Below are positions 1-37,839 of a DNA stretch of 37,839 bases, piece after piece. The DNA lies in IMG/VR virus record IMGVR_UViG_3300045988_092680; one strand, given 5' to 3'. Position 1 is the stretch's first letter. Every line of letters begins with the position of its first letter. Origin of the DNA: a virus. Below the pieces are notes generated by a model that was not told the DNA's origin, ran no database searches, and saw only the letters and a list, made by a program, of their open reading frames with translations. A program made the position numbers and the translations under genes.

Positions 1-119
1 CTTTTTTTTGCATTAAGGAGGCGTTGCGTATGAAAGCAGATGTTATATGAATGTAGATAGATATATTAAGCAGTTGTTTATTAGTCTGTCAGAGTATAGC
101 CAATACTATGACATTACAA
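1..119. repeat. Terminal direct repeat, identical to 37721..37839 (circular-assembly overlap or terminal redundancy)
   Basis: Read directly: cttttttttgcattaaggaggcgttgcgtatgaaag...acattacaa present at both ends. Confidence 0.95.
30..50 (+). other. 6-codon leader mini-ORF (MKADVI*) with strong SD, ATGA-overlapped with the 47..316 ORF
   Basis: AAGGAGG at 15-21, ATG at 30, TGA at 48-50 overlapping ATG at 47; the downstream ORF has no SD of its own. Confidence 0.3.
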
Positions 120-11027: not shown

Positions 11028-13367
11028 ATGGCTAGACAAGCGGACGGAAGTATCGTTATAGACACCAAAATAGACGACGCTAAGTTAAAAAAAGGAATAA
11101 GCAATATTGGAACAAGTCTTAAAGGAATAACTAAACTTGTAGCCACTGCTTTTTCTGTTAAAGTCATTTATAATTTTACTAAAGCCTGTATTCAAGCTGC
11201 TTCCGACTTGGAGGAAGTACAGAATGTTGTTGACGTAGTATTTGGAGAAAGTTCCGAGATTATAAATAACTTTGCTAAAAATGCTGTTAAGAGCTTAGGA
11301 TTAAGTGAATTATCAGCTAAACAATATGCTTCCACAATGGGAGCTATGTTAAAAAGTATGAAATTATCAGACAAACAAGTATTAACAATGTCTCAAAATC
11401 TTACCGCTTTAGCTGGAGATATGGCTTCATTTTATAATATTAGCGGAGACGAGGCGTTTACTAAACTTAGAGCTGGTATTTCAGGAGAAACTGAGCCATT
11501 GAAACAATTAGGTATAAACCTTAATGTTGCTAACTTGGAGGCTTACGCTTTATCTAAAGGTATTGATAAGTCATTCAATTCAATGTCTCAGGCGGAACAA
11601 GCAATTATAAGATATAATTACTTACTTGATGTTACTAAAGACGCTCAAGGAGACTTCTCTAGGACATCAGGAAACTGGGCTAACCAGGTAAGAGTATTAT
11701 CAGAACAATGGAATACTTTTAAAAGTGTTTTAGGAAGTTCTTTTATTCAAGTATTAACCCCTATAATTCAAGCTTTAAATAAAATAATGGAAAAACTTAT
11801 TCTAGCCGGTAAGTATTTTCAAAGATTCGTTTATATGCTAACTGGTGTTAAGCCAGAAACAAACGGAGCTACAAAAGCTGTTGAGGGATTAGGTGGTAGT
11901 TTGGACGACGCCACTGATAAGGCTAAAAAAACTAAAAAAGCATTACAAGGATTGCAAGGATTCGATAAATTAAATGTATTAGATAGTGATTCAGATAGTG
12001 ATAGCGATTCGTCTGGCGGTGCTTCTGGAATGAGTATAGACGATCCGTATGACTTTTCTGACGCAATTACTGCTACTGACGCCTTAGACGGAGCATTTGA
12101 GGAAATTGATAATAAATTGAAACGAATAAAAGATGTCTTTAAAAGTGTTTGGGACAGTGCTATAGTTCAATCATTTGTATATGCTGTTAAGTCATATATT
12201 CAATATATTTACGATTTTGTTGTATCTATGGGCGAAGCATTATGGGAAAATATGCAATTAACCTGGGAAAACATTAGATTAGACGTTGAAACTATGCTTT
12301 CAAACATTACTGAATTATGGACTACTTTTTGGACTGACTTAGGAGATACAATTAACGAATATTCTCAGCCAATTATAGAGGGAATGACTGAGTTATTTAA
12401 TTCTGTATGGACTGAAGCAATAGATCCTTTAATAAAAACTCTTACTAAAGCTTGGTCTGATTTTACTGGTATTCTATTAGAACTATGGAATAAGTATGGT
12501 AAAGATATATTAGACGGTATTGGAGAGTTCGTTACTAATACTATTGATCTATTTCAATCTATATGGGACAACGTACTAGAGCCAATAATAACGCCGTTTT
12601 TAGAGACTTTGTCTTGGCTATGGGACAAACATATAAGTAAAATGGTTAAGGCTATCGGGGAGTTCTTAGCAACTGTTATAGATTGTGCTTTACAATTATA
12701 TAACAAGTTTATAAAACCTATTGTTTCTTGGTTATTAGAAAAATTAGCTCCAGCTTGGTCTTTCTTAAGCAGCACTGTTATAGGAATTGTTGGTACTATT
12801 GTTGGTACCATAAGCGATTTGGTAACGGGTATTACAAAAATATTAACAGGAATAATCAAGTTTATTACTGGAATATTCACTGGCGATTGGAAGAAAGCCT
12901 GGGAGGGTGTTAAATCTATATTTACTGGAATATGGGATTCTCTATCTGGAGTTGTAAAAGGTGTTCTTAATGTAATTATTGATGTATTGAATGGTTTTAT
13001 TTCAGGTATCAATAAAATCAGCTTTGATGTTCCCGATTGGGTTCCTATTATAGGCGGTAAAAAATGGGGCTTTGATATTCCTAAAATAAAGAAATTTGAA
13101 AACGGAGGCGTTTTATTCAAAGAAACAGTTGGTGTTATGGCTGAATACGATAACGCACGATTCAATCCAGAAATCGTATCTAAAGAAAGTGAAATGGCTA
13201 AAGTATTTGACGGTGTAATGAGTAAATGGGTAAATAAAATAAATAGTGGTTCAGGTAAAATGACTGGAACGCTAAGATTAGTAGATTCTAACGGAGCTAC
13301 GTTAGGAAAAGTTGTAGTTGACGCAATCGACGCTTATAGCGACGAATTAGGCTACAACCCACTATAG
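11028..13367 (+). CDS. Tape measure protein
   Basis: 779 aa, helical repeats, DSDSDSDS linker, hydrophobic GxxxG-rich C-terminal half. Confidence 0.9.
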   Translation: MARQADGSIVIDTKIDDAKLKKGISNIGTSLKGITKLVATAFSVKVIYNFTKACIQAASDLEEVQNVVDVVFGESSEIINNFAKNAVKSLGLSELSAKQYASTMGAMLKSMKLSDKQVLTMSQNLTALAGDMASFYNISGDEAFTKLRAGISGETEPLKQLGINLNVANLEAYALSKGIDKSFNSMSQAEQAIIRYNYLLDVTKDAQGDFSRTSGNWANQVRVLSEQWNTFKSVLGSSFIQVLTPIIQALNKIMEKLILAGKYFQRFVYMLTGVKPETNGATKAVEGLGGSLDDATDKAKKTKKALQGLQGFDKLNVLDSDSDSDSDSSGGASGMSIDDPYDFSDAITATDALDGAFEEIDNKLKRIKDVFKSVWDSAIVQSFVYAVKSYIQYIYDFVVSMGEALWENMQLTWENIRLDVETMLSNITELWTTFWTDLGDTINEYSQPIIEGMTELFNSVWTEAIDPLIKTLTKAWSDFTGILLELWNKYGKDILDGIGEFVTNTIDLFQSIWDNVLEPIITPFLETLSWLWDKHISKMVKAIGEFLATVIDCALQLYNKFIKPIVSWLLEKLAPAWSFLSSTVIGIVGTIVGTISDLVTGITKILTGIIKFITGIFTGDWKKAWEGVKSIFTGIWDSLSGVVKGVLNVIIDVLNGFISGINKISFDVPDWVPIIGGKKWGFDIPKIKKFENGGVLFKETVGVMAEYDNARFNPEIVSKESEMAKVFDGVMSKWVNKINSGSGKMTGTLRLVDSNGATLGKVVVDAIDAYSDELGYNPL

Positions 13368-18549: not shown

Positions 18550-20310
18550 ATGGCACAAATAATTAGAACTCGTAGAGATATAAAAACGAACTGGGAAACT
18601 GAAAACCCAGTTCTAGCTCTAGGAGAACAAGGCTACGAAACTGATACAGGAAAATTAAAATTTGGCGACGGTAATACTAGCTGGAATAACCTACCATATT
18701 TTAGAGGAGCTTTAACAGAAGAATTAGAAGAAAAATTAGATTCTGTACCAACTCCTAGTAATATAGTAGTAATAGAAAATATATCAAGCTTGTTTAAGTC
18801 TGTTTCATATAACAGTGCTAACGGAGTTTTGACTTTTACACAATATAATGATACAATAGTTACTGTCGATTTGCCACTAGAGTTAATAGTTAGTAGCGGA
18901 CATTATGATAGCGATACTAAGAGTATTATACTCGTTCTCGCTAATCAAGAAACTATCACTATTCCTGTTAGTGATCTAGTTAATGAGTATTATGCTGATA
19001 ACACTACGTTAGAATTAAAACAAGTCAACGGAAAGTTGACTTTTAATGTAAAAGACGGTGTTTTTGTAAAAGCTCAAACTGGTAAAGGATTATCGACTAA
19101 TGATTATTCAACTTTGGAAAAAAATAAGTTAGCTGGAATAGCATCAGGAGCACAAGTTAATAAGGTTGAAAAAATACTTATTAACGGTGTGGAACAATCT
19201 ATAACAGATAAAACAGTAAATCTCGAAGTGAAAACAACCTCAAATAAGATATACGGTATAAAAAGATCGTTATCTTCTAATACATCTTCAGCTTGGGAAA
19301 GAACAGACGATTCAGTTGGATTGGTAGCTAATGCAACTAAAGACGGTAGTTCTGTTGTTAATAATTTTGATAGTATCTACCCTTGGTCTGATATTATTAC
19401 ATACAATTATGATACTCAAGCTAAAGCAATAACCGCTTATTATGGAGAACCTACTTTTAAGTTTGACGGTTCTAATGGCGAAGTATTAACTAGAATACCA
19501 GAATTTTATTATAAGAGATATGTTTCTAACAACGTAGAATATATTCTCATTTCGAGAGAAAAACACGACGGATTCATTAAAAGCGAACAATTTAGTGTTG
19601 GACGTTATACTTATTCAGGTTCAGCCTCAAGAGTGTATAGCCGAAGTGGTTATGAGCCATTTAGAAATTATAATATAACCAATGCTAGAGCTTATGCTAG
19701 GGCTTTAGGAGACGGATTCGGACAACTAGATTGGCATTATTTAATTATTCAGATGTTATATTTGGTAGAGTATGCTAATTATAATTGTCAATCTATGTTA
19801 GGACAAGGTCGTGTTTCAAGTAGTACACCTAACAACAGTGGCGGTTGTGATACCCTAGGTATGAAATCTGGTTGCTTGGGTAATGACGGAACATATTCTG
19901 TAATATATAGAGGTATTGAGGATCCTTACGGAAATATTTGGCAATTTATAGACGGTATAAATGTAAAAGATCACGTTCCGTATGTATGTTATGATTCTAG
20001 TAAGTACGCTGTTGACACATTTGACGGAGCTTATCACGTATTAAATTTCACAATGCCGTCAGCTAATGGCTATGCTTCTAAATTGGGTTATGATTCAAAT
20101 AATCCCCTTATGTCTTTAACAACTGAAGCTTCTGGTAGTTCTACTACTAATATGTGTGATTATTACTATCAGAATGACGGGAATCGTATCGCTCTTGTCG
20201 GCGGTCGTTTTGATTATGGTAGTGCTGCTGGGTTGTGGTTTTGGACTTTTGACAATACTTCGTCTAATACTTATACTTCGTACGGTGCTCGACTTCTTAG
20301 AAACCAGTAA
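18550..20310 (+). CDS. Tail fibre / receptor-binding protein, DGR target (Mtd_N-like N-terminus, C-type-lectin/FGE-like variable tip)
   Basis: N-terminus RRDIKTNWETENPVLALGEQGYETDTGKLKFGDGNTSWNNLPYF; C-terminus ALVGGRFDYGSAAGLWFWTFDNTSSNTYTSYGARLLRNQ*. Confidence 0.85.
   Translation: MAQIIRTRRDIKTNWETENPVLALGEQGYETDTGKLKFGDGNTSWNNLPYFRGALTEELEEKLDSVPTPSNIVVIENISSLFKSVSYNSANGVLTFTQYNDTIVTVDLPLELIVSSGHYDSDTKSIILVLANQETITIPVSDLVNEYYADNTTLELKQVNGKLTFNVKDGVFVKAQTGKGLSTNDYSTLEKNKLAGIASGAQVNKVEKILINGVEQSITDKTVNLEVKTTSNKIYGIKRSLSSNTSSAWERTDDSVGLVANATKDGSSVVNNFDSIYPWSDIITYNYDTQAKAITAYYGEPTFKFDGSNGEVLTRIPEFYYKRYVSNNVEYILISREKHDGFIKSEQFSVGRYTYSGSASRVYSRSGYEPFRNYNITNARAYARALGDGFGQLDWHYLIIQMLYLVEYANYNCQSMLGQGRVSSSTPNNSGGCDTLGMKSGCLGNDGTYSVIYRGIEDPYGNIWQFIDGINVKDHVPYVCYDSSKYAVDTFDGAYHVLNFTMPSANGYASKLGYDSNNPLMSLTTEASGSSTTNMCDYYYQNDGNRIALVGGRFDYGSAAGLWFWTFDNTSSNTYTSYGARLLRNQ
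20191..20298 (+). repeat. DGR variable region (VR0), in frame at the 3' end of the fibre gene
   Basis: Bounded by GCTCTTGTCGGCGGT and GGTGCTCGACTTCTT, blocks shared with four downstream cassettes; only 2 AAY codons. Confidence 0.8.
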
Positions 20311-20373
20311 GTGGGGGTTTGGGGGCGACCAGCCTCCCATAATAAAACTTCTTTTTTACCGACGAAAGTCGGT
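20311..20373 (+). promoter_or_regulatory. G-rich element plus two hairpins downstream of VR0 (IMH/target-recognition-like, or the fibre-gene terminator)
   Basis: gtgggggtttgggggcgaccagcctccca (GC-rich stem 20320-20339) and accgac-GAAA-gtcggt (20358-20373). Confidence 0.4.
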
Positions 20374-20432
20374 CGAGCTAAATTTATTTTTTGGGATTTG
20401 ATGTGGCGAGTACCGTTCGACTTTTAGCTTTC

Positions 20433-20543
20433 GCTCTTGTCGGCGGTGGTTATACTACCGACGCTGTACGTTGCGGGTTGTGGTGTTGGACTTTTGACAA
20501 TACTTCGTCTAATACATATACTTCGTACGGTGCTCGACTTCTT
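20433..20543 (+). repeat. Cassette C1: orphan VR-like copy (111 nt, one extra codon; VR-type 3' end CTTCTT)
   Basis: 3' 69 nt differ from VR0 at only 2 positions; 2 AAY codons; no credible gene context. Confidence 0.75.
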
Positions 20544-20596
20544 ATTTTTTCGGGGACTTGGTGTGGTTTGCACTTTCCTTTTGTTTGTGTTTCTTT

Positions 20597-20704
20597 GCTC
20601 TTGTCGGCGGTGCTTGGTCTAATGGTACGGAAGCTGGGTTGTGGTATTGGAACGTGAATGAAGCTTCGTCTAATGCGTGGACGAATGTCGGTGCTCGACT
20701 ACTT
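20597..20704 (+). repeat. Cassette C2: TR-like copy (5 AAY codons; 3' end CTACTT)
   Basis: Same conserved 5', central and 3' blocks; encodes ALVGGAWSNGTEAGLWYWNVNEASSNAWTNVGARLL in a frame with no start context. Confidence 0.7.
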
Positions 20705-20766
20705 ATATCATTTTATAAATATAGGGATTTGATGTGTTTGAGTGCGTGATTTGTGGCGTTTTTATT

Positions 20767-20874
20767 GCTCTTGTCGGCGGTCGTTTTGATAATGGTAGTA
20801 ATGCTGGGTTGTGGTATTGGAATTACAACAATGATTCGTCGTTGGCTAACACCACTGTCGGTGCTCGACCTCTT
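20767..20874 (+). repeat. Cassette C3: best template-repeat candidate for the 5' two-thirds of VR0 (6 AAY codons; 3' end CCTCTT)
   Basis: Cassette positions 1-66 versus VR0: 8 mismatches, 7 at C3 adenines. Confidence 0.7.
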
Positions 20875-20922
20875 ATTTTGGGATTTGGTGTGTTTTGTAC
20901 CGGCGTTTTCAGTGTTCGGCAG

Positions 20923-21030
20923 GCTCTTGTCGGCGGTAATTGGGGCAATACTACTCAAGCTGGGTTGTGGTATTGGAACTTCAATTGGTCTGGGACTGAT
21001 TACAACACTAATGTCGGTGCTCGACTACTT
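20923..21030 (+). repeat. Cassette C4: TR by position (~120 nt upstream of the RT start; 6 AAY codons; 3' end CTACTT)
   Basis: Same conserved blocks; followed by a ~120-nt spacer with hairpin ttgcc-cctt-ggcaa (21062-21075), then the RT. Confidence 0.65.
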
Positions 21031-21153
21031 ATATTTATAAATTACTTACACATCATTTTCCTTGCCCCTTGGCAAAAATTAGTCGCTCTGGGTTGGCTTA
21101 GTAGGTTAATTCTCGAAAAGTCGGCAGGCAAATATAAGAATATGGAGCCAGAA

Positions 21154-22218
21154 ATGAAAAGAAAAGGAAATATTTATAATGAAATATTAGAACTCAACAA
21201 TATTGAATCAGCAATATTTAAAGCTTCTGTTGGTAAGACGCACCGTAAGAGTGTTGAAAAAATACTAGACGCCCCTACGTATTACGCTATGCAAGTGCAA
21301 AAAATGTTATCAGATAGAAGCTATATTCCTAGTCCGTATATTGAAATGAAAATAAGAGACGGAGCTAGCAAAAAAGAAAGAATTGTATTTAAACCTAGGT
21401 TTTACCCAGATCAAATAATACACTGGGCTTTAATGAATAAAGTAGAACCACTTTTTAAAAGAGGTATGTACGAATTTTGCTGTGCTTCTATTAAAGGGCG
21501 TGGAATACAACGAGGAATGAATTATGTTAAAAGAATCCTAGTTAATGATAGAAAACATACTAAATATTGTTTAAAATTAGATATTAAAAAGTTTTACCCC
21601 AGTATAGATAAAGAAATACTAAAAAAGAAGTTTAGAAAAATAATCAAAGATAAAGATACATTATATTTAATGGATCTAATAGTAGATAGTTCTACAGAGG
21701 GTGTTCCAATAGGTAATTTTACTTCACAATGGTTTGCTAATTACTATTTACAAGATTTGGATCACTATATAAAAGAAGAATTAAAGGTTAAATACTATAT
21801 AAGATATATGGACGATATGGTATTATTCTCTAATAATAAAAAAGAACTACGTAAGTGCAAATATGCTATTGACGAGTTCTTAACACGAGAACATTTAAGG
21901 ATTAAGGAAAATTGGCAATTATTTAAAACTGATAGCCGTCCTATTGACTTTCTTGGTTATCGCTTTTACAGAGGTTATACTACATTACGAAGAAGTAATT
22001 TTTTAAGAATCAAAAGAAGAATCAAGAAAATATCAAAGAAAGAAGAACTTAATTTTAAAGACGCTTGTGCGATAATGAGTTATAATGGTTGGATTATACA
22101 TTCTGATTCATATAACTACACTCAAAAATATTTAAAGCCTTATGTTGATTTTAAAAAGGTTAAGGAGGTAATTAAAAATGAAAACAGAAAGCACAATAAA
22201 ACCGGAAATAAAATTTAG
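21154..22218 (+). CDS. DGR-type reverse transcriptase
   Basis: MKRKGNIYNEI... start with GGAG 6 nt upstream; motifs KPRFYPDQIIHWAL, LKLDIKKFYPSI, VPIGNFTSQWFANYYL, YIRYMDDMVLF, IDFLGYRF. The ORF is open from 20734, but that upstream part is cassette DNA. Confidence 0.9.
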   Translation: MKRKGNIYNEILELNNIESAIFKASVGKTHRKSVEKILDAPTYYAMQVQKMLSDRSYIPSPYIEMKIRDGASKKERIVFKPRFYPDQIIHWALMNKVEPLFKRGMYEFCCASIKGRGIQRGMNYVKRILVNDRKHTKYCLKLDIKKFYPSIDKEILKKKFRKIIKDKDTLYLMDLIVDSSTEGVPIGNFTSQWFANYYLQDLDHYIKEELKVKYYIRYMDDMVLFSNNKKELRKCKYAIDEFLTREHLRIKENWQLFKTDSRPIDFLGYRFYRGYTTLRRSNFLRIKRRIKKISKKEELNFKDACAIMSYNGWIIHSDSYNYTQKYLKPYVDFKKVKEVIKNENRKHNKTGNKI

Positions 22219-35962: not shown

Positions 35963-36184
35963 ATGGAAAAACAAAATAAAAAATTAGAACCATTTACAGT
36001 AGAGTTAATGTTATTATCTGCTAAGATAACACCAAAAGAAGACGGAACATCAACTGTATTATTTGGAGTCGAAACTTTAGATGTTTTAAAAGAAATGTGT
36101 AAAACTGATAAAGAAGCTTGGAATACTGTTAAAAAAGTTACGTATGACGCCTTAGAGAAAATCGAAAAACAATCAAATGAATAA
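35963..36184 (+). CDS. Hypothetical protein, paralog of the C-terminal half of 35618..35959
   Basis: ...LKEMCKTDKEAWNTVKKVTYDALEKIEKQ aligns with ...LERICKEDKSTFIAIKQTIYKSLENIENK. Confidence 0.5.
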   Translation: MEKQNKKLEPFTVELMLLSAKITPKEDGTSTVLFGVETLDVLKEMCKTDKEAWNTVKKVTYDALEKIEKQSNE

Positions 36185-36195
36185 GGAGGTCAAAA

Positions 36196-36666
36196 ATGGA
36201 AAACTATTATAAGTTAGTAGCCGACTTACAATGTGCTTACCAACGATTAAGATCATTACAAGAAAGACAGGAAGCTATATTTGATAGATACTTCCCTGTA
36301 ACTGTCAAGTACAAACCAATCTCCTCCACTGGCGGAGAGTCAAAAGATAAAATGTTGGGTTATTTAGAAGAATTAGAAGAATCTGGAATCGCAAAAGATT
36401 TGGAGGAAGCTATAAAAAATGTTAATTCTATTCAGCACAGAGTAGCTAATATGGAAATAATCTTACGTGGTGTAGAAAATATAACAGGTAATGATAGTTT
36501 AGAGTTTAAAGTTATGAATCTTAAGTATTATGAAAATCGTAGCTATACCCTACAACAAATAGCTGATAGATTGCATTATTCAATAGATCGAGTTAAGCAA
36601 GTAAGTGCTGAAATAGAAAGAAAATTAAAAGATAATTATTACACTAAAAATACACTTCAAAAGTGA
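36196..36666 (+). CDS. ArpU/RinA-like late transcriptional regulator (sigma region-4-like HTH)
   Basis: YTLQQIADRLHYSIDRVKQVSAEIERKL; last gene before the packaging module. Confidence 0.6.
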   Translation: MENYYKLVADLQCAYQRLRSLQERQEAIFDRYFPVTVKYKPISSTGGESKDKMLGYLEELEESGIAKDLEEAIKNVNSIQHRVANMEIILRGVENITGNDSLEFKVMNLKYYENRSYTLQQIADRLHYSIDRVKQVSAEIERKLKDNYYTKNTLQK

Positions 36667-36739
36667 TAAAATGGTAATGTGGAATAATTAAAGACGGCTT
36701 GTAGAGTGCCCCTGATTAAAGAGAACTCTACTTTATATC

Positions 36740-36807
36740 TCGGTAGCGGTGTGATAGTCGCACGCAGGTTCCATATTCCTGAGGAGAGGTGCAATTCCTA
36801 CTACCGA
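36740..36807 (+). ncRNA. tRNA-like module 1 (CAU anticodon-like loop, truncated T arm)
   Basis: Acceptor tcggtag/ctaccga, D arm gtgt-gatagtc-gcac, anticodon arm caggt-tccatat-tcctg, T-loop-like ggTGCAATTcc. Confidence 0.4.
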
Positions 36808-37129
36808 AACCATTGATTTATATAGTGAGCCGATCACTCACGTTAATATAAATAAGTTTTTACTAATTTTGACTTGGCTAGAGCAAGCTTACGAATAAGA
36901 ATTAGGGTGGAAATTACTTTGCTACCTTAAGGTAAAGGTGCGTTGATATTTCAAGCGTAAAAATATCTGTATCTATTGCAAACAATAGAAGCTCAATTTA
37001 TGCTGATGTGGTGGAAAAGAGACACGCCAGAAATGGTGGGTATTCCGAAAGGAACCCGTGGGAGGTTATAACTCTCTATCAGCTCCAATATGCTATTATT
37101 CAATGTTGTATAGATAGACCTAAGATGTC

Positions 37130-37148
37130 TAAGGGTGCGAATCCCTTA
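37130..37148 (+). other. T-loop-like hairpin taaggg-TGCGAAT-ccctta
   Basis: Perfect 6-bp stem; loop resembles the tRNA T loop; enclosed by ccta(a)ga / tctagg. Confidence 0.45.
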
Positions 37149-37431
37149 TCACTTCCTTTCTAGGCTCTGGCTTATCGGCTTTATAATTGATAAGATACGT
37201 TGTGTTAGTCGCCTTACATAAACCTTTGGAGGACAAGAATCATTTCCGTAAGAATCTTTATCTTGAATTTTCCATTCAATCCGTAGAAATGTAAAACCGT
37301 AGCAACGTATTCTCTTGAACGAACAAGGATTCAAGTTGGTTATGACAAACATACGCTAAACTATTAGTCGTAATTCTATGTAAGTATTCGTAGTGGAATA
37401 CCAAGGTTATTGCATAGAGAAATAGTAAATA

Positions 37432-37518
37432 TAGGTAGTAATCTAAGGAGTAAGATTCCGCTGGGGAGTAGGAAACGAAAGCCAGGGGCTATATACGGTG
37501 CAATTCCGTATCTACCTA
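37432..37518 (+). ncRNA. tRNA-like module 2 (acceptor, D and T arms present; oversized central arm)
   Basis: taggtag/ctaccta, atct-aaggagta-agat, atacgg-TGCAATT-ccgtat; the 35-nt central arm is not a canonical anticodon arm. Confidence 0.35.
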
Positions 37519-37522
37519 CCAC

Positions 37523-37560
37523 GCTAGTATCACACTAGCCAACCCCTTTTTATTCTTTTT
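37523..37560 (+). terminator. Hairpin plus T-rich tract (possible 3' end of the ncRNA)
   Basis: gctagt-atcac-actagc followed by caacccctttttattcttttt. Confidence 0.4.
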
Positions 37561-37695
37561 AGATAAAGCACTACTCTAATAGGTAGTGTACTGATGATAT
37601 GTGAAAGGTTGCGGACGTTATCATAAAGACCTAGTATATCGTTAGTACAGTATCTGTTAAAGGGTACTACTCCTCTATCAAGTAGAGAACTGTAA

Positions 37696-37729
37696 GACAT
37701 TACATTCCAGAGCGTGATGTCTTTTTTTT
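37696..37729 (+). terminator. Rho-independent terminator spanning the circular junction
   Basis: gacattac-(10 nt)-gtgatgtc (one G-U pair) followed by eight T. Confidence 0.6.
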
Positions 37730-37839
37730 GCATTAAGGAGGCGTTGCGTATGAAAGCAGATGTTATATGAATGTAGATAGATATATTAAGCAGTTGTTTA
37801 TTAGTCTGTCAGAGTATAGCCAATACTATGACATTACAA
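37721..37839. repeat. Second copy of the terminal direct repeat (same as 1..119)
   Basis: Exact identity read directly. Confidence 0.95.

What the first reader, a model, noticed from the sequence alone, without database searches (positions are those of the whole stretch)
36740..37518. Three hairpins with the same T-loop-like heptaloop, and two tRNA-like modules built on a shared GGTAG...GGTGCAATTCC...CTACC frame
Seen in sequence: three hairpins share a loop consensus TGCRAWT. They are ggTGCAATTcc (36788-36798), taagggTGCGAATccctta (37130-37148) and atacggTGCAATTccgtat (37493-37511). Two of them are the T arms of cloverleaf-like folds. Module 1 (36740-36807) has a 7-bp acceptor tcggtag/ctaccga, a D arm, and a 5+7+5 anticodon arm displaying CAT. 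However, it has C at position 33, a U-U pair in the stem and only a 3-bp T stem. Module 2 (37432-37518) has a perfect 7-bp acceptor taggtag/ctaccta, a perfect D stem atct/agat and a perfect 6-bp T stem. Its central arm, however, is 35 nt with a 17-nt loop. Established knowledge: the loop resembles the tRNA T loop (TTCRANY), a recurrent tertiary-docking motif in large RNAs. tRNA-like elements are often associated with large phage ncRNAs. Inference: these are structural or mimicry modules of the large RNA, or highly divergent tRNAs, rather than standard decoding tRNAs. The repeated frame suggests an internal duplication.
Basis: partly seen in the sequence, partly recalled or inferred. Interest (0 to 1): 0.65.

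Follow-up and report, generated by a model that had tools for sequence, protein, structure and literature searches.

The report
tRNA-derived modules in phage noncoding RNA
Two cloverleaf-shaped RNA modules that descend from tRNAs but cannot decode codons bracket a large structured non-coding RNA in a common gut phage, and one of them belongs to an uncatalogued phage RNA family in which a tRNA body carries a hairpin resembling the ribosome's sarcin-ricin loop.

Summary
GGTGCRAWTCC occurs exactly three times in the window, all on the + strand of one gene-free stretch. The GGTAG...GGTGCAATTCC...CTACC frame occurs twice, against zero expected. Neither module is an ordinary tRNA: ARAGORN calls none. 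Module 1 (36740-36808, CAU loop) scores 21.3 bits on Rfam tRNA (threshold 29). Module 2 matches no Rfam family.

Both nevertheless look tRNA-derived. The same 11-mer is the T arm of ARAGORN-called phage tRNA-Met(CAU) genes. In a more distant relative (L221) the element at module 2's position passes the tRNA threshold (35.3 bits).

Module 2's cloverleaf covaries strongly: 13 of 24 pairs change on both sides, reached by 0 of 500 shuffles. Relatives occur in unrelated phage contigs, twice close to real tRNA genes.

The loop reads AGUA-G[GAAA]C-GAA, a sarcin-ricin-type motif. Other lineages swap this arm while keeping the tRNA body.

The middle hairpin is lost in several relatives. The whole 36.69-37.56 kb region is a modular, covarying RNA.

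Best reading: natural tRNA scaffolds and processing modules. Function is untested.

The parts
36667..36693 (+). Conserved promoter-like segment (…AAAATGGTAATGTGGAATAATTAAAG) directly after the stop codon of the sigma-like gene. It is the probable start region of the RNA.
   Evidence: Nearly identical in L025, L074, L202 and L221, although the flanking coding DNA is only 74-78% identical. The simple sigma-70 scan did not call it. Its role as a promoter is inferred.
36701..36731 (+). 5' hairpin P0 (GTAGAGT…ACTCTAC).
   Evidence: Three of 7 pairs are replaced on both sides in L025 and L074 (GCTGATT…AATCAGC).
36740..36812 (+). Module 1: a tRNA-like cloverleaf with a CAU 'anticodon'. Acceptor 36740-46 / 36801-07. 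D arm 36749-63. Anticodon-like arm 36765-81. T arm 36786-36800 with loop TGCAATT at 36790-96. Invariant 3' tail AACCA at 36808-12.
   Evidence: Rfam tRNA model matched full length at 21.3 bits, below the 29-bit threshold. The L202 ortholog scores 25.9 bits and has a canonical TTCAATT loop. ARAGORN calls it only at an 85% threshold. 62 of 73 columns are invariant in 5 lineages, with 2 compensatory pairs. It has C8, C33, a U31-U39 pair, a 3-4 bp T stem and no GG in the D loop.
36813..36997 (+). Variable insert A.
   Evidence: Absent from L025, L074 and L221, partly present in L202, and removed together with module 3 and hairpin 2 in L010 (deletion 36816-37164).
37001..37086 (+). Module 3: a multi-helix junction. 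A 7-bp closing stem encloses hairpins capped GAAA (37027-38 and 37041-60) and a 5-bp/7-nt hairpin (37063-79).
   Evidence: The closing stem exists in three compensatory versions (GCTGAT/ATCAGC, GTCCTT/AAGGAC, GCTAGT/ACTAGC), with 4 pairs changed on both sides. Fold z-score is -2.68. It has no Rfam tRNA hit.
37115..37148 (+). Anticodon-arm-like hairpin TAGAC-CTAAGAT-GTCTA (37115-31), overlapping hairpin 2 TAAGGG-TGCGAAT-CCCTTA (37130-48). Possibly the remnant of half a tRNA.
   Evidence: Read directly from the sequence. ARAGORN in mitochondrial mode calls 37088-37150 as Leu(aag), which is weak evidence. The loop becomes TGGAAGT in L025. The hairpin is deleted in L010 and broken in L202 and L221. 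It is therefore dispensable.
37206..37304 (+). Variable insert B, inside the long-range stem ATACGTT…AACGTAT.
   Evidence: Absent in L025, L074 and L202. A 57-nt piece (37219-75) is missing in 6 of 10 near-identical prophages. L008 and L010 carry 1-nt indels here, which argues against coding.
37360..37426 (+). Long covarying hairpin upstream of module 2.
   Evidence: Several pairs change on both sides.
37432..37521 (+). Module 2: a tRNA-shaped four-way junction. Acceptor 37432-38 / 37512-18. U8 at 37439. D arm 37441-56. Central arm 37458-88. T arm 37493-37511. Tail CCA at 37519-21.
   Evidence: In 11 sequences from 5 lineages, 96.9% of cells are paired and 13 of 24 pairs change on both sides. 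No shuffle of 500 reaches this, and slid controls reach at most 2. The covariance model R1 recovers members in L034, L038, L048, L097, L122 and L202. It matches no Rfam family.
37465..37481 (+). Sarcin-ricin-type loop of module 2: GG-AGUA-G[GAAA]C-GAA-AG.
   Evidence: The 15-mer GAGTAGGAAACGAAA is identical in the window family, L034, L038/L048/L097, L079 and L122, although the surrounding stems have diverged. L237 has the closing pair flipped (AGUA-C-GAAA-G-GAA). That it adopts the S/R fold is inferred from sequence only.
37523..37560 (+). Hairpin GCTAGT-ATCAC-ACTAGC followed by a T-rich run. Probable 3' end or terminator of the RNA.
   Evidence: Conserved in all relatives. The simple terminator scan did not call it because the T run starts 8 nt after the stem. 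Its role is inferred.

Best explanation
The window is a circular temperate phage genome. Between its late-regulator-like gene (sigma-70 region 4 domain, 36196-36666) and the packaging genes lies about 1.1 kb with no gene. Roughly 36694-37560 is transcribed rightward as a modular, highly structured non-coding RNA.

Modules 1 and 2 sit at its two ends. Both are tRNA-derived cloverleaves that no longer decode.
- Module 1 is a degenerate tRNA(CAU) with a very strongly conserved sequence.
- Module 2 keeps a tRNA body (acceptor, U8, D arm, T arm). Its anticodon arm has been replaced by a 7-bp stem capped with a sarcin-ricin-type loop (bulged-G AGUA/GAA plus a GAAA tetraloop).

Proposed mechanism. 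The tRNA bodies act as natural 'tRNA scaffolds' and punctuation marks. They are recognised by the host tRNA-processing machinery (RNase P, RNase Z or exonucleases, and the CCA-adding enzyme). This gives defined ends and stability. It would release module 2 as a stable RNA of about 90 nt that presents its sarcin-ricin-like arm to a partner, most likely a protein. It would also cut the long transcript into its modules.

The three 'T-loop-like' heptaloops are simply T loops, with G at position 55, inherited from a phage tRNA-Met/Ile2(CAU)-type lineage.

What is shown: the elements exist, they are on the + strand, they covary, they have tRNA ancestry, the region is modular, and the central arm is exchanged on a constant body.

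What is inferred: transcription, processing, the S/R fold, and any partner or function.
For: Non-coding status:
- No genes were called in the gap on ten metagenomic contigs.
- The small ORFs have no Pfam or PHROG family.
- Close relatives carry 1-nt indels in the region.

Structured RNA on the + strand:
- 24 of 150 predicted pairs and 22 of 80 have compensatory changes.
- Many G-U pairs would be A-C mismatches on the other strand.

tRNA ancestry:
- GGTGCAATTCC is the T arm of seven ARAGORN-called phage tRNA-Met(CAU) genes and one tRNA-Ile(UAU) gene.
- Module 1 matches the Rfam tRNA model full length at 21.3 bits, and at 25.9 bits in L202, where the loop is canonical TTCAATT.
- The D arm of the L038 copy of module 2 (TAGTGTAAAAGTAGCAC) differs by one base from that of the real tRNA-Met in L028.
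- The L221 element at module 2's position scores 35.3 bits against a 29-bit threshold. It has a canonical D loop, T loop and ACCA.
- After transplanting a normal anticodon arm, ARAGORN at default settings calls the L038 and L221 bodies as tRNAs. It calls none of 700 shuffled-body controls.

Scaffold with exchangeable cargo:
- At the same syntenic position the central arm is sarcin-ricin-like in the window, L025 and L074. It is unrelated in L202 and is an 86-nt multi-hairpin insert in L221. The body is kept throughout.
- The same arm sits on differently sequenced bodies in L034, L038, L079, L122 and L237.

Processing context:
- The L122 copy starts 4 nt after a real tRNA-Ile and ends in CCA. 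The L048 and L097 copies lie about 85 nt upstream of a real tRNA-Gln.
- An encoded A-CCA follows module 2 in the window, L122 and L221. An invariant AACCA follows module 1.

Modularity: indels remove whole modules.
Against: - There are no expression or end-mapping data, so transcription and RNase P/Z cleavage are untested.
- The window's own module 2 body is not called a tRNA even after the anticodon-arm transplant, and Rfam tRNA gives no hit. Its T stem is 6 bp, so the acceptor/T stack is 13 bp rather than 12. The GG in its D loop is not conserved. Recognition by processing enzymes is therefore not assured.
- Module 1 has only a 3-4 bp T stem and lacks U8.
- CCA after module 2 is not conserved: L025 has CCG, L074 CAG and L038 TGC.
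- Scaffolding alone does not explain why module 1 is 89-100% identical where flanking genes are about 75% identical.
- Covariation rests on about 5 independent lineages.
- The S/R assignment is from sequence only.
Confidence: 0.5

Rival explanations
1. Anti-defence decoys. The tRNA-shaped modules would be bait or competitive inhibitors for host nucleases that attack tRNA anticodon loops or the 23S sarcin-ricin loop. Module 1 would mimic tRNA-Met/fMet(CAU). Module 2 would mimic the sarcin-ricin loop on a tRNA-like handle. This concerns the function of the cargo and is compatible with the scaffold mechanism.
For: The 17-nt loop is identical across phages whose stems have diverged. The CAU loop of module 1 is invariant in 5 lineages. 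The elements occur only in phage contexts. Phage tRNAs are proposed to evade or replace targets of tRNA-targeting defences (PMC10264068). From my own knowledge, not tested here: PIN-domain VapC toxins cleave either initiator tRNA or the sarcin-ricin loop.
Against: No defence or toxin gene is linked to these elements. The tetraloop is GAAA, not the ribosomal GAGA. L202 and L221 replace the arm with unrelated sequence, so any sarcin-ricin-loop mimicry is not essential to this locus. No experiment bears on it.
Confidence: 0.17
2. The T-loop hairpins and cloverleaves would be internal tertiary-docking or architectural domains of one obligate large RNA, like GOLLD or ROOL. They would not be separately processed units.
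For: The whole region covaries. It contains several GAAA/GNRA tetraloops and multi-helix junctions. GOLLD and ROOL are phage RNAs found near tRNA islands, and tRNAs sometimes lie in the GOLLD linker (PMC12286853).
Against: There is no GOLLD, ROOL or other Rfam hit, even at E<=10. Modules are lost independently in natural variants. L010 lacks module 3 and hairpin 2, and L025 and L074 lack inserts A and B. Hairpin 2 is not conserved. Module 2 occurs without the rest of the RNA in L034, L038, L048 and L122. Its T loop is not conserved there.
Confidence: 0.15
3. Decaying tRNA genes. The region would be the relic of a phage tRNA array, with no present function.
For: There are several tRNA-like fragments, including a half-tRNA-like piece at 37115-48. 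The elements give sub-threshold tRNA scores. Modules are lost in some relatives.
Against: Compensatory substitutions maintain the stems. Module 1 is 100%, 96% and 89% identical to its L025, L074 and L202 counterparts, where flanking coding DNA is 74-80% identical. The central loop of module 2 is conserved across unrelated phages.
Confidence: 0.1
4. Module 1 is a genuine but unusual decoding tRNA (Met, or Ile2 after lysidine modification). Module 2 would then be a separate matter.
For: It has a 7-bp acceptor, a CAU at the right place, A37, a 5-nt variable loop and a T loop shared with real phage tRNA-Met genes. Its sequence and 3' AACCA are invariant.
Against: ARAGORN at default settings does not call it. 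It scores 21.3 bits against a 29-bit threshold. It has C8 instead of U8, C33 instead of U33, a U31-U39 pair, a T stem of 3-4 bp instead of 5 and no G18-G19. Relaxed ARAGORN calls are not informative, because shuffles give 0.44 calls per 1160 nt.
Confidence: 0.06
5. A DNA-level element. The three near-palindromes would be protein-binding sites, for example for the small terminase subunit at pac/cos, or operator sites.
For: The location is just upstream of the packaging genes. The 19-bp hairpins are near-perfect inverted repeats.
Against: The conserved part is the centre and the arms differ, which is the opposite of dimer operators. The arms change by compensatory substitutions and use G-U pairs, which are meaningless in duplex DNA. 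All copies share one strand orientation within cloverleaf contexts.
Confidence: 0.02

Closest known systems
Phage-encoded tRNAs, in particular tRNA-Met/Ile2(CAU)-type genes with T arm GGUGCAAUUCC
   Same: They share an identical T-arm 11-mer, a CAU at the anticodon position (module 1), a D arm of the GUGU-AAAAGUA-(A/G)CAC type (L028 tRNA versus the L038 copy of module 2), a cloverleaf shape, and a location in phage late or structural regions and tRNA clusters.
   Different: ARAGORN does not call the modules, and they score below the Rfam threshold or not at all. In the real tRNAs, GGTAG covers positions 6-10 and CTACC positions 71-75. In the modules these two pentamers pair with each other. 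Module 2 has no anticodon loop at all.
tRNA-like processing signals (MALAT1 mascRNA, mitochondrial tRNA punctuation) and the engineered 'tRNA scaffold' for recombinant RNA (PMC3753655, PMC3401473)
   Same: A tRNA body whose anticodon arm is replaced by another RNA. The body supplies processing and stability. This matches the constant body with exchangeable central arm seen across the window, L202 and L221.
   Different: Those are eukaryotic, organellar or man-made systems. Processing of the phage modules is not demonstrated here.
GOLLD and ROOL large phage RNAs (Rfam RF01998, RF03087; PMC12286853)
   Same: Large, ornate, covarying non-coding RNAs of phages and prophages, with their own transcription. 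They lie next to tRNAs, and tRNAs are sometimes embedded in the linker.
   Different: No covariance-model match, even at E<=10. The present RNA is a string of separable modules that are lost independently.
Sarcin-ricin (bulged-G / loop E) motif; the 23S rRNA sarcin-ricin loop (PMC8450098 for the motif; the rRNA sequence AGUACGAGAGGA(C/A)C is from my own knowledge)
   Same: The 5'-AGUA / GAA-3' strands flank a Watson-Crick pair that closes a GNRA tetraloop. The closing pair is G-C, or flipped to C-G in L237. The flanking purine-purine positions change G..G to A..A in L025.
   Different: The tetraloop is GAAA rather than GAGA. The motif sits on a tRNA-like body rather than in rRNA. The 3D fold is not verified.
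Bacterial Y-RNA-like YrlA and the stable 'species 1/2' RNAs of the T4 tRNA cluster (from my own knowledge; not tested)
   Same: Non-decoding RNAs with tRNA-like domains. Some are encoded by phages and co-processed with tRNAs.
   Different: YrlA has its ends in the anticodon-side helix and binds Ro. No Rfam Y-RNA hit here. I could not compare the T4 species.

Membership tests
Canonical tRNA (ARAGORN / Rfam RF00005) | Called by ARAGORN at default stringency | tested here: not met
   No tRNA genes in the window or in L025, L074, L202 or L221. Module 1 is called only at a threshold of 85% or lower, a range with many false calls.
Canonical tRNA (ARAGORN / Rfam RF00005) | Rfam tRNA model at or above the 29-bit gathering score | tested here: not met
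   Module 1 scores 21.3 bits. Module 2 has no hit at E<=10 in a 101-nt search. The orthologous L221 element does pass, at 35.3 bits.
Canonical tRNA (ARAGORN / Rfam RF00005) | 7-bp acceptor stem, U8, and a 4-bp D stem with G18-G19 in the loop | tested here: inconclusive
   The acceptor is 7 bp in both modules. Module 1 has C8 and no GG. Module 2 has U8 in all members, but the GG is present only in the window family.
Canonical tRNA (ARAGORN / Rfam RF00005) | 5-bp anticodon stem and 7-nt loop with U33 and a purine at 37 | tested here: not met
   Module 1 has C33 and a U31-U39 mismatch. Module 2 has a 7-bp stem with a 17-nt loop.
Canonical tRNA (ARAGORN / Rfam RF00005) | 5-bp T stem and 7-nt T loop U54-U55-C56-R57-A58 | tested here: inconclusive
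   The loops are UGCAAUU, so U54, C56, R57 and A58 are kept and position 55 is G. The T stem is 3-4 bp in module 1 and 6 bp in module 2. Position 55 is U in the L202 copy of module 1 and in the L221 element.
Canonical tRNA (ARAGORN / Rfam RF00005) | Aminoacylation, CCA addition, and RNase P/Z processing | not testable with these tools
   Only sequence hints are available: A-CCA follows module 2 and AACCA follows module 1.
T-loop structural motif | A five-nucleotide motif with a U(1)-A(5) reverse-Hoogsteen pair, closed by a Watson-Crick pair | tested here: inconclusive
   U at position 1, A at position 5 and a G-C closing pair are present in all three hairpins and in most homologs: UGCAAUU, UGCGAUU, UGUGAUU, UUCGAGU and UGGAAGU. 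This is sequence-level evidence only, and the 3D fold cannot be tested.
Sarcin-ricin / bulged-G motif | AGUA opposite GAA, a bulged G, flanking non-Watson-Crick purine pairs, here capped by a GNRA loop | tested here: inconclusive
   The sequence fits exactly (AGUA-G-GAAA-C-GAA). It is invariant across lineages. The closing pair covaries in L237. The motif definition is from PMC8450098.
GOLLD / ROOL / other Rfam large RNAs | Covariance-model match | tested here: not met
   There are no matches in 36000-37839 at E<=10, or in the relatives at gathering score.
tmRNA | ARAGORN tmRNA call (tRNA-like domain plus tag reading frame) | tested here: not met
   None found in the window.
Module 2 family (model R1, defined here) | tRNA-shaped four-way junction with covarying acceptor, D, central and T stems | tested here: met
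   The window scores 109.8 bits. L038 scores 80.3, L048 73.5, L122 96.4, L202 82.1 and L034 51.1. 13 of 24 pairs are compensatory.

The most novel reading that the evidence does not exclude
Module 2 would represent an unrecognised class of phage RNAs in which a tRNA body is used as a delivery and stability scaffold for a mimic of the ribosomal sarcin-ricin loop. The released RNA of about 90 nt would act in trans. It might serve as a decoy for host toxins that cleave the sarcin-ricin loop or tRNA anticodon loops. Alternatively it might titrate a factor that recognises the sarcin-ricin loop. Module 1 (the CAU mimic) would play the parallel role for nucleases directed at initiator or Met tRNA. 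The locus as a whole would then be a cassette array of tRNA-scaffolded functional RNAs whose cargo arms are exchanged between phages.
Probability: 0.12. Interest if true: 0.85.

Novelty: new variant of a known kind. Interest (0 to 1): 0.6.

Why it matters
tRNA genes in phages are usually discussed as codon supplements or as replacements for tRNAs cleaved by host defences.

Here a widespread human-gut prophage keeps tRNA-derived cloverleaves that cannot decode. Its late-regulator-like protein is indexed in 1611 blocks of the public assembly collection. The cloverleaves lie at both ends of a roughly 860-nt covarying RNA.

Comparison across phages shows a constant tRNA body carrying interchangeable 'cargo' arms. 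One cargo is a sarcin-ricin-type hairpin conserved to the nucleotide in unrelated phages.

If the scaffold and processing idea holds, phages use the same trick that RNA engineers use (the tRNA scaffold) to make stable small RNAs.

It would also give a concrete, testable entry point to the function of large phage non-coding RNAs that sit next to tRNAs, such as GOLLD and ROOL.

The family is absent from Rfam and from cultured-phage GenBank records.

Tried and rejected
- **GenBank phages.** blastn of the whole 1.17-kb region found no match. The central arm alone gave only chance 20-mers in coding genes.
- **Rfam.** Searches at gathering score and at E<=10 gave nothing relevant except the sub-threshold tRNA hit for module 1.
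It does call module 1, module 3 and a 'Leu(aag)' around hairpin 2. At that stringency, however, it makes 24 calls in the window and 0.44 per shuffled 1160 nt. I do not count these as evidence.
- **ARAGORN intron mode.** It gave inconsistent calls, so I rejected an intron-containing tRNA.
- **Metagenome scan for the central loop.** It mostly returned what looks like a conserved coding sequence, plus copies of this same phage.
- **Species-representative genome scan.** It gave one true hit (L122) and one chance hit.
- **Degenerate loop pattern.** It mostly returned conserved coding-type sequences, plus one partial true case, L237.
- **Antisense target for the 17-nt loop within the phage.** None found.
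- **Nine-nucleotide complement of module 1's loop in the upstream gene (36447-55).** It is not conserved in L025, so I dismissed it as chance.
- **Coding explanation for the small ORFs.** Rejected.
- **DNA palindrome or operator explanation.** Rejected because of the G-U pairs and compensatory arm changes.
- **Canonical-register reading of module 1** (GGTAG at positions 6-10, CTACC at 71-75, as in the real tRNAs). This is impossible, because only 4 nt lie between the T loop and CTACC.
Full report
**Setting**

The window carries a 119-bp terminal direct repeat, so it is a circularly assembled genome of about 37.7 kb. It encodes a terminase, a portal protein, a serine recombinase, a CHAP lysin and a reverse transcriptase. 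Its closest cultured relatives by large terminase are Clostridium and Streptococcus phages, at about 45% identity.

The protein encoded at 36196-36666 has a sigma-70 region 4 domain. It is indexed in 1611 blocks of the public assembly collection. The contigs examined were long gut-metagenome contigs of 99-356 kb, so the phage appears to be a common prophage.

On all ten contigs examined, no gene was called between this gene and the small terminase subunit gene. The small ORFs in that gap have no Pfam or PHROG family. Near-identical relatives carry 1-nt indels in the gap. The stretch 36667 to about 37766 is therefore non-coding.

**Check of the observation**

Every coordinate and sequence in the finding is correct.
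- The bare heptamer TGCRAWT is not enriched: 17 hits against 21.8 expected.
- The closed form GGTGCRAWTCC occurs exactly three times, all on the + strand at the three stated places. Only 0.5 hits are expected even with one mismatch allowed.
- The frame GGTAG…GGTGCAATTCC…CTACC occurs twice against 0.00 expected.

The proposed cloverleaves are the minimum-free-energy folds of the isolated modules. Their z-scores are only -2.0 and -0.8.

**Are they ordinary tRNAs?**

No.
- ARAGORN finds no tRNA in the window or in any relative of this RNA.
- The Rfam tRNA model aligns full length to module 1 (36740-36808), but at 21.3 bits against a threshold of 29.
- The module 1 alignment shows C8, C33, a U31-U39 mismatch, a T stem of 3 bp plus a G-A pair, and no G18-G19.
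- Module 2 matches no Rfam family, even in a 101-nt search at E<=10.
At that stringency, however, shuffled sequence gives 0.44 calls per 1160 nt and the window gives 24 calls. I give these calls no weight.

**Are they tRNA-derived?**

Yes, with good support.

I scanned IMG/VR for the shared frame. Besides relatives of this phage, the scan returned seven ARAGORN-called phage tRNA-Met(CAU) genes and one tRNA-Ile(UAU) gene. Their T arm is exactly GGUGCAAUUCC. The 'T-loop-like' heptaloop is therefore a real T loop of a phage tRNA lineage that has G at position 55.

In those real tRNAs, GGTAG covers positions 6-10 and CTACC covers positions 71-75. They do not pair with each other as they do in the modules. 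The frame match is thus partly coincidental, and the canonical register is impossible for module 1.

Further links to tRNA:
- In L202, module 1 has the canonical loop TTCAATT and scores 25.9 bits on the Rfam tRNA model.
- The D arm of the L038 copy of module 2 differs by one base from that of the real tRNA-Met in L028.
- L221 and L222 encode a regulator protein 69-70% identical to the window's. At module 2's position, between the same upstream hairpin and the same downstream terminator-like hairpin, they carry an element that passes the Rfam tRNA threshold at 35.3 bits. It has a canonical D loop, a TTCGAGT T loop and ACCA. An 86-nt insert replaces its anticodon arm.
- In an in-silico transplant I replaced the central arm with a normal anticodon arm. 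ARAGORN at default settings then calls the L038 and L221 bodies as tRNAs. It calls none of 700 shuffled-body controls. The window's own body is not called.

**Do homologs keep the stems?**

*Module 2.* I aligned 11 distinct sequences from five lineages: the window type, L025, L074/L142, L202, and the unrelated phages L038/L048 and L122.
- 96.9% of cells are paired.
- 13 of 24 pairs change on both sides.
- None of 500 shuffles reaches this, and slid-register controls reach at most 2.
- All four helices covary.
- Frequent G-U pairs place the RNA on the + strand.

*Module 1.* It varies little: 62 of 73 columns are invariant across five lineages. All changes in stems either preserve or improve pairing, and two pairs are compensatory. 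The support is modest, because 27 of 500 shuffles do as well. Its identity to the window is 100% in L025, 96% in L074 and 89% in L202. Flanking coding DNA is 74-80% identical.

*Hairpin 2.* It is not conserved. Its loop becomes TGGAAGT in L025. It is deleted in L010 and broken in L202 and L221.

**What is conserved in module 2**

It is in fact the most conserved part. The 15-mer GAGTAGGAAACGAAA is identical in:
- the window family;
- L034, where the element is a three-way junction with no T arm;
- L038, L048 and L097;
- L079;
- L122, where the T loop is AGAAATG.

The acceptor, D and T stems differ among these.

Read as RNA, the loop is GG-AGUA-G[GAAA]C-GAA-AG. An AGUA strand lies opposite a GAA strand, next to a Watson-Crick pair that closes a GNRA tetraloop. 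This is the sequence signature of the sarcin-ricin (bulged-G) motif. The motif is described as modular and autonomous in PMC8450098. From my own knowledge, the 23S loop reads AGUA-C[GAGA]G-GA(C/A).

L237 is a partial copy at a contig end. It has the closing pair flipped (AGUA-C-GAAA-G-GAA) next to a canonical T arm. In L025 the flanking G..G becomes A..A.

The fold itself is not verified.

No paper in the searchable library contains the sequence. No GenBank phage carries it. I found no antisense target in the phage.

**Exchangeable cargo on a constant body**

At the syntenic position the central arm differs between lineages:
- sarcin-ricin-like in the window, L025 and L074;
- an unrelated AU-rich arm in L202;
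- an 86-nt multi-hairpin insert in L221, with two further T-arm-like hairpins.

The acceptor, D and T parts persist in all of them.

Elsewhere I found tRNA-like genes with the same T loop whose anticodon arm is a 7-bp stem with a 4-nt loop: L030:3599-3673 and L038:10806-10880.

The pattern is a tRNA body that carries different non-decoding arms. This is the architecture of the engineered 'tRNA scaffold' (PMC3753655, PMC3401473).

**Genomic context**

- In L122 the element starts 4 nt after a real tRNA-Ile(UAU) and ends in CCA.
- In L048 and L097 it lies about 85 nt upstream of a real tRNA-Gln.
- In the window and in L034 it lies between the late-regulator-like gene and the packaging or HNH genes.
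- An encoded A-CCA follows module 2 in the window, L122 and L221, but not in L025, L074, L202 or L038.
- An invariant AACCA follows module 1.

**The surrounding RNA**

RNAalifold on five relatives predicts 150 pairs over 36690-37560, of which 24 are compensatory. The part between the modules gives 80 pairs, of which 22 are compensatory.

- a covarying 5' hairpin at 36701-31;
- a multi-helix junction at 37001-86, whose closing stem exists in three compensatory versions and which contains GNRA-capped hairpins;
- an anticodon-arm-like hairpin at 37115-31, abutting hairpin 2;
- a long hairpin at 37360-37426;
- a conserved terminal hairpin with a T run at 37523-60.

Natural variants delete whole blocks:
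- L010 lacks 36816-37164.
- L025 and L074 lack about 36813-36997 and 37206-37304.
- Six close relatives lack 37219-75.

The region therefore behaves as a string of modules rather than as one indivisible fold. It has no GOLLD, ROOL or other Rfam match.

**Interpretation**

The best-supported account has four parts.
- The three heptaloops are inherited tRNA T loops.
- Modules 1 and 2 are tRNA-derived cloverleaves that no longer decode, at the two ends of a modular structured RNA.
- Module 2 belongs to a recurrent, uncatalogued phage family in which a tRNA body presents a sarcin-ricin-type arm.
- The tRNA bodies most plausibly serve as handles for the host tRNA-processing enzymes, giving defined ends and stability, while the arm is the functional cargo.

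Transcription, processing, the fold of the arm and any partner are inferences.

Rival readings, weighed in the Rival explanations section, are:
- decoys for nucleases that target tRNA or the sarcin-ricin loop, which is compatible with the scaffold idea;
- internal docking domains of a single large RNA;
- decaying tRNA relics;
- a genuinely decoding but odd tRNA (module 1 only);
- DNA-level binding sites.

The module 2 model scores module 1 at 23.6 bits. That lies within the 16.5-37 bit range it gives to real tRNAs carrying the same T arm. The shared GGTAG/CTACC acceptor is also absent from the L038, L122 and L221 versions.

**Verdict**

This is a new variant of a known kind: tRNA-like non-coding RNAs of phages. 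It has one unexpected feature, the sarcin-ricin-type arm on an exchangeable tRNA scaffold, which deserves experimental follow-up.

Noticed in passing
window 18550-22218: A cassette that looks like a diversity-generating retroelement. A 113-nt repeat has 5 copies: 20187-20299 at the 3' end of the 586-aa ORF, then 20432, 20593, 20763 and 20919, at 63-79% identity. It is followed by Rfam RT-18 RNA (21063-21138, 60.9 bits) and a reverse transcriptase ORF (about 21139-22218). The number of repeat copies is unusually high.
   Followed up: partly
window 1-119 and 37721-37839: An exact 119-bp terminal direct repeat, meaning the contig is a circular assembly. The ORF listed at 47-316 therefore starts at 37767, and the gene-free gap is about 1.1 kb.
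   Followed up: yes
L011, L013, L014, L015, L019, L026, L028 (tRNA-Met) and L024 (tRNA-Ile UAU): A lineage of ARAGORN-called phage tRNAs with the T loop UGCAAUU (G instead of U at position 55) and a U1-U72 mismatch. Nearly all have a CAU anticodon, so they may be initiator-like or Ile2-type tRNAs.
   Followed up: partly
L030:3599-3673(-) and L038:10806-10880(-): Two tRNA-like genes with a normal acceptor, D arm and UGCAAUU T arm, but an 'anticodon arm' made of a 7-bp stem with a 4-nt loop. ARAGORN does not call them. This is another non-decoding cargo on a tRNA body.
   Followed up: no
L221:3549-3697 (also L222): A 149-nt element that passes the Rfam tRNA threshold. An 86-nt insert replaces its anticodon arm and contains two further hairpins with canonical T loops (TTCGATT).
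   Followed up: partly
window 37601-37634: A short segment that is replaced wholesale by a different sequence, plus 12 extra nt, in L003 and L010. The flanks are near-identical, so it looks like a swapped hairpin cassette.
   Followed up: no
window 37657-37672 versus L025, L074, L202, L221: The relatives carry an extra small ORF of about 70 aa, with its own RBS, between the RNA and the late-operon terminator-like hairpin. The window lacks it.
   Followed up: no
window 37697-37770: A strong terminator-like hairpin (GACATTAC…GTGATGTC followed by T8). It is followed by AAGGAGG and a 6-codon mini-ORF (ATGAAAGCAGATGTTATATGA), whose stop codon overlaps the ATG of the next ORF. This may be a coupling or leader arrangement at the start of the late operon.
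   Followed up: no
L038 about 12390-13270(-): The unrelated phage L038 also has a gene-free stretch of about 0.9 kb. It starts with a module 2-like element and contains another T-loop-like hairpin (TAGAG-TGCAATA-TTCTA). This hints at analogous modular RNAs in other phages.
   Followed up: no
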